Shown: in pieces, positions 24,593 through 26,452 of the stretch
Layout of the letters: each line of letters begins with the position of its first letter
How positions within the stretch are numbered: the stretch's first letter is position 1
DNA from: Candidatus Microgenomates bacterium
Lineage (GTDB): Bacteria > Patescibacteriota > Microgenomatia > JACQLA01
Reading direction: 5' to 3'
NCBI GenBank assembly: GCA_016204255.1
Contig: JACQLA010000002.1
Location: 1 to 45,154 of the forward strand
Length of the DNA stretch: 45,154 bases
Program-made: the position numbers and the translations under genes
The notes under the pieces: generated by a model
Told to the model about the DNA's origin: nothing
The model's input: the letters and a program-made list of their open reading frames with translations, nothing else
Databases searched by the model: none

Positions 24593-25228
24593 ATGTTGCT
24601 TTTCCTTGCCGGTTTTGTCATTTTAATACTTTCTATTATTCTTCATGAAGTAGCCCATGGCTATGCCGCCAATTATTTAGGCGATCCCACCGCCCGTATT
24701 TCAGGAAGATTAACCTTAAATCCCATTCCTCATATCGATCCTGTAATGAGCGTTGCTTTACCGCTTATTTTGGTTCTTTCGGGTTCACCGGTTATTTTTG
24801 GTTCGGCCAAACCCGTCCCGATTGATCCATTTAACTTTCGGGAATCAAGAAAGGACATGGGCATCGTGGGTTTGGCCGGACCCGGCACGAATCTCGCCTT
24901 GGCTATTTTGGCCGCACTTTTAACCAAAATTTTACTCATTATCGACCCGCCTATTTATTATACTGAAGTCCCACTCGCCCTTTTGAGACTAATGGCCTTT
25001 TATAATCTTCTTTTGGCTGCATTTAATCTAATCCCTATCCCCCCGCTGGATGGCTCACGAATCCTGGCAGCCATTCTTCCTGAAAAACAGGCTCATTTTC
25101 TGGACTTCTTAGAACCATATGGAATTTTTATTCTATTCTTTCTGCTTCTTTTTCCCGTCGGCGGGTTTTCCCTAGGATATATGATTTTCAATCTTGTTTC
25201 TTTCTGGTTGCGACTTTTAGGTTTTTAA
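24593..25228 (+). CDS. Site-2 protease (M50 family)
   Basis: HEVAH, LAGP..N, FNLIPIPPLDG. Confidence 0.95.
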   Translation: MLLFLAGFVILILSIILHEVAHGYAANYLGDPTARISGRLTLNPIPHIDPVMSVALPLILVLSGSPVIFGSAKPVPIDPFNFRESRKDMGIVGLAGPGTNLALAILAALLTKILLIIDPPIYYTEVPLALLRLMAFYNLLLAAFNLIPIPPLDGSRILAAILPEKQAHFLDFLEPYGIFILFFLLLFPVGGFSLGYMIFNLVSFWLRLLGF

Positions 25229-25298: not shown

Positions 25299-25327
25299 TT
25301 GACTTTAAGCGTAAAATGTGATAAAAA
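25299..25327 (+). promoter_or_regulatory. Putative promoter of the ncRNA
   Basis: TTGACT-17 nt-TAAAAA with extended TG. Confidence 0.5.
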
Positions 25328-25347
25328 TATCTTGCTAAAAGCAGTCT

Positions 25348-25507
25348 ATCCCTGCCGAGCACGTTTCAAAATTAAGGAAGTTTTTCCTCACAGACTCTCG
25401 AGACTTTGGGTTTGGGCGAAGTCCTCGTTTCGCTGAGGCGGGACAGGCAGCTCTCCCACTTTGAAGCTTCGGGGAAATACCCTTAGTTTGCACGACCTGG
25501 TGGGGAT
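25348..25507 (+). ncRNA. ssrS: 6S RNA-like structured ncRNA
   Basis: Rod fold by eye: ATCCCTGCC/GGTGGGGAT, CAAA/TTTG, ATTAAGG/CCTTAGT, TTTCCTC/GGGGAAA, then an unpaired central bubble (ACAGACTCTC vs CCACTTTGAAGCTTC) and an apical stem. Own promoter, no ORF. Confidence 0.55.
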
Positions 25508-25581
25508 TTTCTTAAAAACTCTTCGATAATATTTTTATGAGTCTTCAGTTTATTTAAACCCTCAATGCCTTCTCACCTCAA

Positions 25582-25610
25582 TTGAAATTAGTCTTTCATT
25601 TTACTATAAT
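25582..25610 (+). promoter_or_regulatory. Strong sigma70 promoter of the tRNA locus
   Basis: TTGAAA-17 nt-TATAAT. Confidence 0.75.
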
Positions 25611-25668
25611 ATTGAAGCTTGCAGAACTCCCAAAGTCCGGGGAGAAGTTTTAGTTAACCCATAATTTT

Positions 25669-25936
25669 GCCGGGGTAACTCAGTGGCCCGTCTCGAATCG
25701 GCGCTCGAGCCGAGGCGGATAGAGTAACTGTTTTTGCCCCAGTAAAATCTTGCCAATTTTGATAAAATTGGCTTAAATTCACGGGATCCCGAAATTTCAA
25801 GCCGACTTAGCTCAGTGGTAGAGCAACTGTTTTGTAAACAGTAGGTCGTCGGTTCAAATCCGACAGTCGGCTCCAAAAGTCGGCAGAAATTTCTGGGATA
25901 AACAGCAAGTCGTGGGTTCGAATCCCACTCCCGGCT
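25669..25936 (+). tRNA. Interrupted outer tRNA gene (Thr-like body), pieces 25669-25686, 25720-25736, 25899-25936; functional status unknown
   Basis: Acceptor GCCGGGG/TCCCGGC, D stem ACTC/GAGT, anticodon stem ACTGT/ACAGC, T arm GTGGG-TTCGAAT-CCCAC, T73. Insertions of 33 nt (D loop) and 162 nt (anticodon loop). Confidence 0.75.
25801..25875 (+). tRNA. tRNA-Thr(TGT), nested inside the outer tRNA
   Basis: Canonical cloverleaf: GCCGACT/AGTCGGC, GCTC/GAGC, ACTGT-TTTGTAA-ACAGT, GTCGG-TTCAAAT-CCGAC, T73, encoded CCA. Confidence 0.97.
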
Positions 25937-25975
25937 CAGCGATAGCAAAGCGGGATAAACAACAGAGATTAGAAG

Positions 25976-26058
25976 GCTGGAGTACGGAAGTAGACAAACC
26001 GACCTGACTGTAAATCAGGTGCCTCACGGCTTCGTAGGTGCAAATCCTGCCTCCAGCA
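25976..26058 (+). tRNA. tRNA-Tyr(GTA)
   Basis: GCTGGAG/CTCCAGC, CGG/CCG D stem, CCTGA-CTGTAAA-TCAGG, long variable arm, A73. Confidence 0.93.
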
Positions 26059-26095
26059 CCCAAGTCTAACTTGGAAAATGTCGACTTTAGATTGG

Positions 26096-26452
26096 CTAGT
26101 CGGAAGAAGGAAGAGGCTTAGGATTCTCTAAACTCATAGGCATATCGCAGCAATACGGTCTACCACCTTCTTGATCTTGAGGATCTTTAACAGAGGACTT
26201 TTTCGTACACAATATTTGCGTCTCACAACCAAAATTTATCTCACCGGCGCTAGTTTTTCTTATGCCACCTTTTAGCTCTGTTACCTCAATTCCCTCTCGT
26301 ATCCTTGTGAATGGATTAGCACATTTATAGCGTTTTCCTAATTGAGACACAGCTCCTTCCCGATATGGTTTTCCGTCACTAACCTGAGTTGTCCATTCAT
26401 GACCATCTTCTAATTTTGCGGTAGCGGTTATTACCGGCGCTTCTTTACTCAT
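26096..26452 (-). CDS. Small Cys-rich desulforedoxin-like metal-binding protein
   Basis: QLGKRYKC...CETQILCTK...YCCDMPM pattern. ATG 26452 is preceded by TGcTAAAAAT. Confidence 0.6.
   Translation of the reverse strand: MSKEAPVITATAKLEDGHEWTTQVSDGKPYREGAVSQLGKRYKCANPFTRIREGIEVTELKGGIRKTSAGEINFGCETQILCTKKSSVKDPQDQEGGRPYCCDMPMSLENPKPLPSSD

What the first reader, a model, noticed from the sequence alone, without database searches (positions are those of the whole stretch)
25787..25898. Inner tRNA is built into the arms of a hairpin element
Seen: TCCC-GAAATTTC-AA-GCCGACTT [rest of tRNA] AAGTCGGC-A-GAAATTTC-T-GGGA. The tRNA 5' end GCCGACTT can pair with its own acceptor strand (25865-25871) or with a second AGTCGGC (25878-25884) in the right arm. 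Inference: the element captured the tRNA as cargo (a ~112-bp mobile tRNA cassette), and the alternative pairing could gate RNase P/3' maturation.
Basis: partly seen in the sequence, partly recalled or inferred. Interest (0 to 1): 0.75.

Follow-up and report, generated by a model that had tools for sequence, protein, structure and literature searches.

The report
tRNA gene nested inside broken tRNA
A working threonine tRNA gene, clamped by a 20-base-pair hairpin stem, sits inside the anticodon loop of an older, disabled copy of the same gene; this small insertion cassette recurs in ultra-small groundwater bacteria.

Summary
TCCC-GAAATTTC-AA-GCCGACTT (25787-25808) and AAGTCGGC-A-GAAATTTC-T-GGGA (25877-25898) bracket an intact tRNA-Thr(UGU) (25801-25875). 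The second AGTCGGC (25878-25884) is real.

The hairpin is the right-hand module of a 162-nt, gene-less insert (25737-25898). The insert lies between G35 and T36 of a second tRNA-Thr(UGU) gene (halves 25669-25736 and 25899-25936). That outer gene also carries a 33-nt D-loop hairpin, an extra T and an A-C mismatch.

The same cassette splits Thr tRNA genes in many Patescibacteria, up to three layers deep. Its layout is TCCCAG, hairpin A, CGGGATCCCG, leader, tRNA, trailer, CTGGGA. In 15 distinct members the leader-trailer helix is always 17-21 bp, borrowing 0-8 nt of the tRNA 5' end. The alternative pairing is therefore a conserved feature, and it is predicted to dominate here (probability 0.97).

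Best reading: an insertion cassette carrying a replacement tRNA inside a relic shell, with arms that probably act as an RNase III-type processing stem. How it inserts is unknown. Suggestively, 6 of 9 small GIY-YIG nuclease genes in this genome lie beside tRNA genes, one beside a cargo-free double hairpin with the same ends.

This scan has noted the same phenomenon on other DNA. My literature searches found no description.

The parts
25582..25610 (+). Promoter-like site TTGAAA-17-TATAAT, about 59 nt upstream of the outer tRNA; the likely promoter of the whole nest plus tRNA-Tyr
   Evidence: 11 of 12 matches; a consensus match only
25669..25686 (+). Outer (shell) tRNA-Thr, 5' part a: acceptor 5' strand GCCGGGG, D-stem 5' strand and start of the D loop
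   Evidence: D3, 78% to the inner 5' end; contiguous with part b in G070
25687..25719 (+). 33-nt GC-rich hairpin inserted in the D loop of the shell (CCGTCTCG...CGAGGCGG). It is absent from the G070 shell; G055 has an insert at the same place
25720..25736 (+). Shell 5' part b: D-stem 3' strand, anticodon stem 5' strand, T32-G35. It carries one extra T in the run 25731-25735 and an A (25727) that gives an A-C mismatch with 25907
   Evidence: (D4)
25737..25786 (+). Hairpin A, the cargo-free left module of the insert (CCCCAG...CGGGA). Its structure is conserved with compensatory changes in 13 family members
   Evidence: 92.2% of cells paired; 9 of 17 pairs with double changes; covariation 0.373 vs 0.132 shuffled, 0 of 500
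25787..25800 (+). Left arm of hairpin B / leader of the inner tRNA (TCCCGAAATTTCAA)
   Evidence: (I2)
25801..25875 (+). Inner, intact tRNA-Thr(UGU) with encoded CCA. Its first 8 nt (25801-25808) also belong to the hairpin B helix
25877..25884 (+). Decoy AAGTCGGC, a second copy of the acceptor 3' strand. It pairs with the tRNA 5' end in the predicted precursor fold
   Evidence: (D7); homologous decoys in G019, G070, L089, L104
25886..25898 (+). Right arm of hairpin B (GAAATTTC-T-GGGA), ending in the family's conserved right terminus CTGGGA
25899..25936 (+). Shell tRNA-Thr 3' half from T36 (anticodon stem 3' strand, variable region, T arm, acceptor 3' strand TCCCGGC, discriminator T). It is 95% identical to 3' halves of intact tRNA-Thr(UGU) genes in other genomes
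   Evidence: (D1)
25940..25966 (+). Possible relic of a still older layer: ...GCAAAGCGGGA | TAAACAACAG repeats the junction 'right terminus GGGA + TAAACAG'
   Evidence: D5: GGGATAAACAGCA / GGGATAAACAACA, 92%; by eye, not tested further
25976..26060 (+). tRNA-Tyr(GUA), the conserved downstream neighbour of tRNA-Thr(UGU) in this class

Best explanation
The flagged hairpin is the right-hand module of a 162-nt, protein-less insertion cassette (25737-25898). The cassette sits exactly between G35 and T36 of the resident tRNA-Thr(UGU) gene, at the conserved locus M50 peptidase - tRNA-Thr - tRNA-Tyr.

The cassette has two parts:
- Hairpin A, a cargo-free stem-loop with ends (T/C)CCCAG...CGGGA.
- Hairpin B, with ends TCCCG...CTGGGA, whose loop is a complete tRNA-Thr(UGU).

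Shown:
- The inner tRNA is the intact gene.
- The outer gene is split and carries further lesions.
- The same cassette architecture, with the same termini and the same insertion point, splits Thr tRNA genes in many Patescibacteria, sometimes in two or three nested layers and with different tRNA-Thr variants as cargo and shell.
- The arms of hairpin B co-vary with their partner and always form a helix of 17-21 bp that runs across the 5' end of the cargo tRNA.

Inferred:
- The insertion killed the resident single-copy gene, and the cargo replaced it. Only hairpin insertions that bring a spare tRNA can survive in an essential tRNA gene. Cargo-free hairpins then accumulate in the dead shell, as in the D loop here.
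- The nest is transcribed from the shell's promoter.
- The ~20-bp helix, which here includes the decoy AAGUCGGC, is a processing stem cut by a double-strand-specific RNase. RNase III is encoded in this genome. Cutting would free the tRNA 5' strand to pair with its true 3' strand before RNase P and 3' trimming.
- The cassette spreads between lineages by recombination through the conserved tRNA halves. Spread may be stimulated by breaks made by the small tRNA-adjacent GIY-YIG nucleases that abound in this genome.

The DNA insertion chemistry itself is unknown.
For: Anatomy:
-. Inner and outer halves are 28 of 33 and 31 of 39 identical.

Orthologous locus:
- The M50 peptidase gene lies upstream in G070 (52% aa identity), G055 (59%), G266 and G285.

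Recurrence:
- At least 11 of 29 class loci inspected are nests, including a three-layer nest in G266.
- 16 of 24 genome-contig hits to the right junction are nests.
- 11 of 80 metagenome loci fetched for the left junction are nests, all with the tRNA 60-73 nt from the junction.

Shell decay:
- Window: D-loop insert, extra T, A-C mismatch.
- G055: shell 3' half truncated.
- G019: shell 5' half mostly gone and T arm degenerate.
- L090, L097, L084: T arms disrupted (by eye).

Helix:
- 15 distinct members have 17-21 pairs, with 0-8 pairs inside the tRNA, inversely related to leader length.
- The cognate trailer ranks best of 15 for 11 of 15 leaders; mean energy is -24.7 against -14.8 for non-cognate pairs.
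- Decoys follow the cargo sequence: ACGTCGGC with GCCGACGT in L089, AGTCGGC with GCCGACT in the window, L104 and G019.
- The helix is cassette-specific: 1 of 39 tRNAs in this genome has it.

Other:
- Hairpin A covariation.
- No splicing machinery found: no tRNA-intron endonuclease, no RtcB. No group I intron or other Rfam family in the insert.
- RNase III is present.
- Nuclease link: 10 GIY-YIG matches, 9 of them small ORFs, and 6 of those 9 lie 25-85 nt from a tRNA gene.
- C5:22560-22990 reads: tRNA-Glu 5' fragment, a cargo-free double hairpin with the same termini and the only other CGGGATCCCG in the genome, a GIY-YIG ORF, then the intact tRNA-Glu.
Against: - No allele without the insert was seen for this strain. 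No RNA data exist, so transcription, processing and the death of the shell are untested.
- No nuclease or transposase gene lies inside any of the 16 + 11 compact nests. None lies next to this one. The GIY-YIG link is association only.
- The shell halves are still very tRNA-like: the 3' half is 95% identical to live genes. That means either a recent insertion or some constraint on the shell.
- Covariation in palindromic DNA can be kept by DNA-level processes without any RNA function. G-U pairs are rare in the arms (5 of 297) but also in the tRNAs (10 of 353), so this does not discriminate.
- In G019 the trailer persists although the left arm is gone.
Confidence: 0.7

Rival explanations
1. One reading: a pre-existing mobile hairpin (hairpin B) captured a tRNA as cargo, and the alternative pairing gates RNase P and 3' maturation as a regulatory switch.
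For: - Cargo-free hairpins with the same termini exist: hairpin A, and C5:22599-22648.
- GC-rich cargo-free hairpins sit in shell D arms.
- The decoy fold dominates the predicted ensemble.
Against: - The arms are tailored to each cargo and borrow 0-8 nt of it to keep a constant 17-21 bp. That looks like co-evolution of a tRNA with its own flanks, not capture.
- No other copy of these arms occurs in the genome.
- Nothing suggests a reversible switch. A one-way processing order explains the same data.
Confidence: 0.2
2. The outer tRNA is alive. The 162-nt insert and the 33-nt D-loop insert are RNA-level introns that are removed and the halves rejoined, as with archaeal multi-intron or split tRNAs, or a group I intron.
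For: - The shell acceptor, D, T and most anticodon-stem pairs are intact, and the whole nest folds as a stalk on the shell anticodon stem.
- The inserts lie at loop positions, as archaeal introns often do.
Against: - No tRNA-intron endonuclease and no RtcB were found in the 81%-complete genome.
- No intron family matched in Rfam.
- The extra T and the A-C mismatch are in the shell. By eye the junction does not form a bulge-helix-bulge.
- Excision of the inner tRNA by RNase P and 3' processing would cut the shell in two.
- Shells decay in G055, G019, L090 and L097.
Confidence: 0.05
3. There is no mobile element. A local duplication or template switch within the tRNA-Thr gene produced the nested copy and its inverted flanks.
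For: - The decoy plus right arm is an inverted copy of the leader plus tRNA 5' end, as a fold-back or template-switch event would make.
- The tandem AGTCGGC copies (D7).
Against: - Inner and outer copies are only 59 of 72 identical and belong to different tRNA-Thr variants.
- The same cassette termini and hairpin A occur in many families with other cargo and shell combinations, in both directions.
- Three-layer nests have three different tRNAs.
Confidence: 0.05
4. The nest is a remnant of an integrase-type island or prophage that integrated in the anticodon loop and was later deleted down to 162 nt.
For: Anticodon loops are classical attachment sites of tyrosine integrases (recalled). Phages that disrupt a tRNA gene and bring a substitute are known (PMC10865867, abstract read).
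Against: - No integrase or other ORF is in or beside the insert.
- There is no duplicated core sequence at the two junctions.
- The nested order 5'-5'-3'-3' is not what att recombination gives.
- Constant compact size in 27 of 27 nests.
- Two viral contigs pattern scans found no nests: 0 hits, and 0 of 16 loci with a tRNA.
Confidence: 0.03

Closest known systems
tRNA-dependent lysogeny of actinobacteriophages (Guerrero-Bustamante & Hatfull 2024, PMC10865867; abstract read)
   Same: An inserted element disrupts an essential host tRNA gene without rebuilding it. [quoted passage not shown]
   Different: That element is a whole phage using a tyrosine integrase and a ~10-bp common core. Here the insert is 162 nt with no gene, no core repeat and hairpin ends. 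It sits inside the anticodon and forms recursive nests.
Free-standing GIY-YIG homing endonuclease SegB in the phage T4 tRNA gene cluster (PMC2330249; abstract read)
   Same: A GIY-YIG nuclease gene lies among tRNA genes, recognises tRNA-gene sequence and drives inheritance of itself and neighbouring tRNA genes. In this genome 6 of 9 small GIY-YIG ORFs lie beside tRNA genes, several between a tRNA fragment and an intact copy.
   Different: The nucleases here are ~85-100 aa proteins of UPF0213 type: best solved relatives are 1ywl and 1zg2, with no SegB-like DNA-binding part. None lies in or next to the Thr nest. Their activity is untested.
Dada DNA transposons of fish and other animals (Kojima 2022, PMC8869645; abstract read)
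   Same: [quoted passage not shown] Those are the two regions hit here.
   Different: Dada elements are eukaryotic, encode a transposase and target multicopy genes, so no spare is needed. Here the target is single-copy, the element encodes no protein, and a spare is carried.
Processing stems and intervening sequences of bacterial rRNA genes cut by RNase III (processing stems: PMC6582327, abstract seen in the search listing; intervening sequences: recalled)
   Same: A long leader-trailer helix encloses a stable RNA, and hairpin insertions replace loops of a structured RNA gene. RNase III is present.
   Different: I know of no such stem described for a tRNA. A tRNA cut in its anticodon loop cannot work, so the host RNA is lost rather than fragmented but functional.
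Archaeal disrupted tRNA genes (multiple introns, split tRNAs; review PMC4090602 seen in the search listing only)
   Same: Insertions at D-loop and anticodon-loop positions of tRNA genes, with complementary flanks.
   Different: This is a bacterium (tRNA-Tyr with a long variable arm). No splicing endonuclease or RtcB was found. There is no bulge-helix-bulge by eye, and the insert carries a complete tRNA.

Membership tests
Group I intron in a bacterial tRNA anticodon loop | Group I ribozyme core (P3-P9) detectable by covariance model | tested here: not met
   No intron family in Rfam at gathering score or at E <= 5 over 25300-26400. The insert is only 162 nt, of which 75 are a tRNA.
Archaeal-type (bulge-helix-bulge) tRNA intron or split tRNA | Splicing endonuclease (PF01974) and RtcB-type ligase encoded | tested here: not met
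   0 matches for PF01974 and PF01139 in the own genome, which is 81% complete, so absence is not proven.
Archaeal-type (bulge-helix-bulge) tRNA intron or split tRNA | Two 3-nt bulges separated by a 4-bp helix at the exon-intron junctions | tested here: inconclusive
   By eye the junction is a 5-bp helix (CCCAG/CTGGG) under an asymmetric internal loop. No dedicated motif search was run.
Integrase-type island or prophage in a tRNA gene | Integrase gene, and a duplicated core or 3' part of the tRNA at the two ends | tested here: not met
   No ORF in the insert. Neighbouring ORFs are an M50 peptidase, VanW, radical SAM and unknowns. The junctions share no repeat.
MITE / terminal-inverted-repeat transposon | Terminal inverted repeats | tested here: met
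   The termini (T/C)CCCAG ... CTGGGA are conserved in the family.
MITE / terminal-inverted-repeat transposon | Target-site duplication and many dispersed copies in one genome | tested here: not met
   The insertion is exact between G35 and T36 with no duplication. No second copy is in the genome. Only C5:22599-22648 shares the termini.
IS200/IS605-derived palindromic element | Y1 (HUH) transposase available; insertion without duplication next to a fixed short target; subterminal hairpins | tested here: inconclusive
   No PF01797 match in the own genome. Insertion without duplication and the two hairpins would fit. However, the cargo lies in the loop of a hairpin, not between the hairpins.
Homing-endonuclease-driven mobile segment (SegB-like) | Nuclease gene inside or adjacent to the mobile segment; cleavage of the empty allele | tested here: inconclusive
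   No nuclease gene is in the 16 + 11 compact nests or beside this one. In the genome, 6 of 9 small GIY-YIG ORFs abut tRNA genes. Cleavage is not testable here.
RNase III processing stem | About two turns of double helix enclosing a stable RNA; RNase III present; cleavage in the stem | tested here: inconclusive
   A helix of 17-21 bp in 15 of 15 members. RNase III gene at C5:168527-168919. Cleavage is not testable with these tools.

The most novel reading that the evidence does not exclude
The nest is the footprint of an undescribed, protein-less palindromic insertion module with termini TCCC(A)G...C(T)GGGA. Small UPF0213-type GIY-YIG nucleases encoded beside tRNA genes drive it into loop-coding positions of tRNA genes. 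It survives in an essential gene only when it carries a spare tRNA. Its ~20-bp arms double as the RNase III stem that frees that tRNA. The alternation of tRNA-Thr variants as shell and cargo, up to three layers deep, would then record an arms race between nucleases and tRNA alleles in ultra-small bacteria.
Probability: 0.25. Interest if true: 0.9.

Novelty: new variant of a known kind. Interest (0 to 1): 0.75.

Why it matters
tRNA genes are usually seen as passive landing pads whose function the invader restores or spares. Here a 162-nt insert with no gene of its own splits a single-copy essential tRNA gene in the anticodon and supplies the replacement. The replacement then becomes the next target, giving nested genes.

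If the reading holds, three things follow:
- It adds a minimal kind of selfish DNA to bacteria and explains odd 'pseudo-tRNA' fragments in Patescibacteria genomes.
- It warns that tRNA finders and synteny analyses will misread these loci.
- It offers a natural, self-contained tRNA expression and maturation module: stem, tRNA and possibly a promoter in hairpin A.

The conserved 20-bp helix that swallows the tRNA 5' end makes a testable prediction about the order of RNase III and RNase P action in organisms with a reduced RNase set.

Tried and rejected
- Sequencing runs: 20 runs listed, no RNA holder listed. The four runs laid (X5, X6, X8, X9) are contigs only. At 80% likeness they mostly show other organisms' Thr tRNAs and nests. 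No contig of this strain bridges the site without the insert, and contigs break at the repeated tRNA words. This gives no verdict on polymorphism or expression.
- Viral contigs: 0 hits for the right junction. The 16 loci hit by CGGGATCCCGTAAAA have no tRNA nearby and look like chance.
- ORFs in Thr-Tyr gaps of relatives: 10 scanned. One is an HNH endonuclease (L074). The rest are ordinary (YqeY, VanW, LysM, methyltransferase) or unknown. There is no consistent nuclease inside nests.
- A local profile of the 9 own GIY-YIG ORFs found 8 such ORFs near tRNA clusters in the fetched loci, none inside a cassette.
- A loose regular-expression census of TCCC..GGGA hairpins in the genome was uninformative. 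It gave hundreds of chance matches, and the stricter CGTA-arm pattern found none. I draw nothing from it. The resemblance I saw by eye between the hairpins before GIY-YIG ORFs (CGTAAAAT...ATTTGTACG) and stem B of L052, L072 and L096 is therefore untested.
- G-U content as a test of RNA-level versus DNA-level pairing did not discriminate.
- The NCBIfam scan of two GIY-YIG ORFs gave only a sub-threshold group I intron endonuclease hit (19 bits against a 56-bit cut-off).
- Literature searches gave nothing on nested or cassette-borne tRNA genes in Patescibacteria.
- Genome G067 is flagged unpublished. No claim here rests on it.
Full report
**1. What is at the coordinates**

- Left side: TCCC (25787-90), GAAATTTC (25791-98), AA, GCCGACTT (25801-08).
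- Right side: AAGTCGGC (25877-84), A, GAAATTTC (25886-93), T, GGGA (25895-98).
- Between them lies an intact tRNA-Thr(UGU): ARAGORN 25801-25875 with an encoded CCA; Rfam tRNA 77.6 bits.
- The true acceptor 3' strand AGTCGGC is at 25865-71 and a second copy is at 25878-84.
- The repeat finder reports the arms as I2 (23 nt, 74% complementary) and the duplicated 3' end as D7.

The pairing is far beyond chance.
- The leader plus tRNA 5' end and the trailer form 20 pairs at -26.7 kcal/mol. Shuffled trailers give -7.0 +/- 2.2, and 0 of 2000 reach the observed value.
- Of the 39 tRNA genes of this genome, only this one has such a leader-trailer duplex (z -6.7; the next best is -2.5).

**2. The wider anatomy**

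The hairpin is only part of the structure. Upstream and downstream lie the two halves of a second tRNA-Thr(UGU)-like gene.
- 5' half, part a: GCCGGGGTAACTCAGTGG (25669-86).
- A 33-nt GC-rich hairpin in the D loop (25687-719).
- 5' half, part b: TAGAGTAACTGTTTTTG (25720-36, ending with G35).
- 3' half, starting at T36: TAAACAGCAAGTCGTGGGTTCGAATCCCACTCCCGGCT (25899-936).

The insert between G35 and T36 is 25737-25898, 162 nt. It folds as two side-by-side hairpins on top of the outer anticodon stem: hairpin A (25737-86) and hairpin B (25787-898) with the inner tRNA at its tip (-103.7 kcal/mol, z -5.7).

Inner and outer copies are 28 of 33 and 31 of 39 identical in their halves. They are different tRNA-Thr variants, not fresh duplicates.

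The outer copy has three lesions: an extra T in the run 25731-35, an A-C mismatch at the top of the anticodon stem, and the D-loop hairpin.

A promoter-like site (TTGAAA-17-TATAAT, 25582-610) precedes the whole nest. tRNA-Tyr follows at 25976.

**3. The organism and the locus**

The window is contig 3 of a 0.71-Mb, 41% GC genome that is 81% complete. Its kin in the held genomes are no closer than 'same class'. Public records that carry the same cassette are labelled Patescibacteria, Levy-, Roizman- and Gottesmanbacteria and Parcubacteria. Runs holding the window are groundwater metagenomes.

The M50-peptidase gene upstream of the nest (24593-25228) is also upstream of tRNA-Thr(UGU) in G070, G055, G266 and G285, at 40-59% aa identity. 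This is therefore the resident Thr-Tyr locus.

**4. The nest recurs**

- In G070 the outer 5' half is uninterrupted. The insert is homologous throughout, with the same hairpins A and B and the same cargo variant.
- G055 has a decayed version: a D-loop insert at the same place, hairpin A lost, and the shell 3' half cut down to AAAACAGC.
- G019 has the cargo, now with anticodon CGU, plus the trailer and a degenerate shell at a non-syntenic place.
- G266 has three layers, tRNA in tRNA in tRNA. G090 and G285 use another arm family (GCCTGCCCGCC...GGCGGG).
- Of 29 class loci fetched for similarity to the outer 3' half, at least 11 are nests.
- A scan of one genome per species for the right junction gave 24 hits. 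16 are nests with an intact tRNA-Thr just upstream. The other 8 have no tRNA and look like chance.
- Five of the nest-bearing records are labelled Gammaproteobacteria MAGs. One of them (L094) shows the same nest sequence as the class relative G070, so I distrust those labels.
Of 80 loci fetched, 11 are nests, all with the tRNA 60-73 nt after the junction. The rest have no tRNA.
- Cargo and shell variants swap roles between genomes. For example, the window has GCCGACTT inside GCCGGGGTAACTCAG, and L065 has the reverse.

**5. The cassette family**

All members read as follows: shell ...CTGTTTTG | (T/C)CCCAG - hairpin A - CGGG(A/G)TCCCG - leader - tRNA - trailer - CTGGGA | TAAAC... shell.

Hairpin A:
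- It is structurally conserved with free sequence change. In 13 sequences 92.2% of cells pair, against 79.0% in shuffles.
- 9 of 17 pairs have double changes.
- The covariation score is 0.373 against 0.132, with 0 of 500 shuffles as high. Slid registers pair at most 56%.

Hairpin B:
- The cognate trailer is the best partner of its leader in 11 of 15 cases.
- The helix is always 17-21 pairs long. Leaders of 14 nt borrow 7-8 nt of the tRNA 5' end (window, G070/L094, L089, L104). Leaders of 17-22 nt borrow 0-4.
- The borrowed part follows the cargo: ACGTCGGC with GCCGACGT in L089, AGTCGGC with GCCGACT here.

In the window the model ensemble puts 0.97 probability on the decoy pairing and 0.001 on the canonical acceptor stem. 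The decoy fold is 3.7 kcal/mol better. Tertiary tRNA contacts are not modelled.

Because the left end TCCCAG is the exact complement of the right end CTGGGA, and the middle CGGGA|TCCCG looks like a right end abutting a left end, I read the insert as two tandem hairpin elements of one kind. A has no cargo and B has a tRNA in its loop. This is inference.

**6. What it is not**

- No Rfam family other than tRNA matches the region, even at E <= 5.
- The genome shows no tRNA-intron endonuclease, no RtcB and no Y1 transposase. At 81% completeness this is not proof of absence.
- There is no ORF in the insert, no integrase nearby, no target duplication and no second copy in the genome.
- Two viral contigs pattern scans found no nests: the right-junction pattern gave 0 hits, and none of the 16 loci hit by CGGGATCCCGTAAAA has a tRNA nearby.

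**7. A lead on the driver**

The genome has 10 GIY-YIG matches, 9 of them ORFs of 83-102 aa. Their closest solved relatives are the UPF0213 proteins 1ywl and 1zg2.

Six of the nine lie 25-85 nt from a tRNA gene. By my own rough estimate about 3% of random placements would do so.

Examples:
- At C5:22560-22990 a tRNA-Glu 5' fragment is interrupted by a cargo-free double hairpin (TCCCG...CGGGA | TCCCG...CGGGG). It holds the only other CGGGATCCCG in the genome. A GIY-YIG ORF and the intact tRNA-Glu follow.
- Similar layouts of fragment, hairpin, nuclease and intact tRNA occur at tRNA-Asn and tRNA-Leu(CAG).

Further tRNA fragments lie upstream of tRNA-Leu(UAA) and tRNA-Leu(CAA). GIY-YIG ORFs of this kind also sit in the Thr-Tyr-Thr-Trp clusters of relatives.

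None lies inside any compact Thr nest, so the link is by association.

**8. How it most likely works**

Shown: the geometry, the recurrence, the co-varying arms, the constant helix length, the lesions and decay of shells, and the nuclease-tRNA adjacency.

Inferred:
- (a) The insert disabled the resident single-copy gene and the cargo took over its job.
- (b) Cargo-free hairpins are tolerated only in dead shells, which explains the D-loop and T-loop hairpins seen there.
- (c) The nest is transcribed from the shell promoter.
- (d) The ~20-bp helix is cut by a double-strand RNase. RNase III is encoded. Cutting removes the decoy and lets the acceptor stem form for RNase P.
- (e) Spread between lineages uses recombination through the conserved tRNA halves, possibly after nuclease breaks.

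The insertion chemistry is unknown. Palindromic DNA can keep its arms matched without RNA function, so (d) rests mainly on the constant length and on the helix being cassette-specific.

**9. Comparison with what is known, and novelty**

Functionally the closest case is tRNA-dependent lysogeny (PMC10865867, abstract): disruption of a tRNA gene plus a complementing copy. That element is a phage with an integrase.

SegB (PMC2330249, abstract) shows that GIY-YIG nucleases can target tRNA-gene sequence and drive tRNA-region inheritance. Dada transposons (PMC8869645, abstract) hit the same two regions of tRNA genes, but in animals and with their own transposase.

I found no description of gene-less hairpin cassettes carrying a tRNA inside a tRNA, nor of nested bacterial tRNA genes. 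The relevant searches were made; supplements were not visible.

This scan has noted the same phenomenon on other DNA: 19 findings held my search words and 24 windows held look-alike stretches. Those are unchecked AI notes and I do not count them as support.

I class the finding as a new variant of a known kind: a tRNA-gene-targeting insertion that compensates for its own damage. There is a real chance that the mechanism is new.

Noticed in passing
window 25940-25966: Just before tRNA-Tyr the motif ...GCAAAGCGGGA | TAAACAACAG repeats the junction 'cassette right end + T36-A38 + anticodon stem'. This may be the last relic of an even older outer layer whose T arm and 5' half are gone.
   Followed up: partly
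window 25627-25644: A small hairpin CTCCCAAAGTCCGGGGAG lies between the promoter-like site and the shell tRNA. It has TCCC...GGGGA ends like the cassette hairpins. The consensus scan lists it as terminator-like.
   Followed up: no
window 25750-25779 (apex of hairpin A): The conserved apex of hairpin A (TTGCCAAATTTGATAAAATTTGG in most members) contains a TGnTAAAAT-like extended -10 motif, and the scan reports a weak promoter-like site here (9 of 12). The cassette may carry its own promoter.
   Followed up: no
own genome C5:22560-22990, C2:183600-183992, C5:145653-146110 (outside the window): At each place a tRNA 5' fragment interrupted by hairpin(s) is followed by a ~85-aa GIY-YIG ORF and then the intact tRNA (Glu, Asn, Leu-CAG). 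Overall 6 of 9 small GIY-YIG ORFs lie beside tRNA genes.
   Followed up: partly
own genome C5:121703-121726 and C5:219830-219860: There are orphan copies of tRNA 5' ends. An exact 24-nt copy of tRNA-Leu(UAA) lies ~170 nt upstream of that gene. A 31-nt, 97% copy of tRNA-Leu(CAG) lies ~50 nt upstream of tRNA-Leu(CAA).
   Followed up: no
L020/L078 (G019), minus strand about 1470-1640: A tRNA-Thr(CGU) at a non-syntenic place carries the same trailer, decoy and a degenerate shell 3' half as the window's nest. A Thr(CGU) gene seems to have arisen from a copy of the UGU cassette. The window genome itself shows no Thr(CGU) gene in its 81%-complete assembly.
   Followed up: partly
L091, L094, L096, L101, L106 (genome contigs records): Five nest-bearing records are titled 'uncultured Gammaproteobacteria bacterium' MAGs. 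L094 shows the same nest sequence as the class relative G070, so these labels look wrong.
   Followed up: no
L074:1587-2231 (G374): A 214-aa ORF with an HNH endonuclease domain fills the gap between tRNA-Thr(UGU) and tRNA-Tyr in one relative.
   Followed up: no
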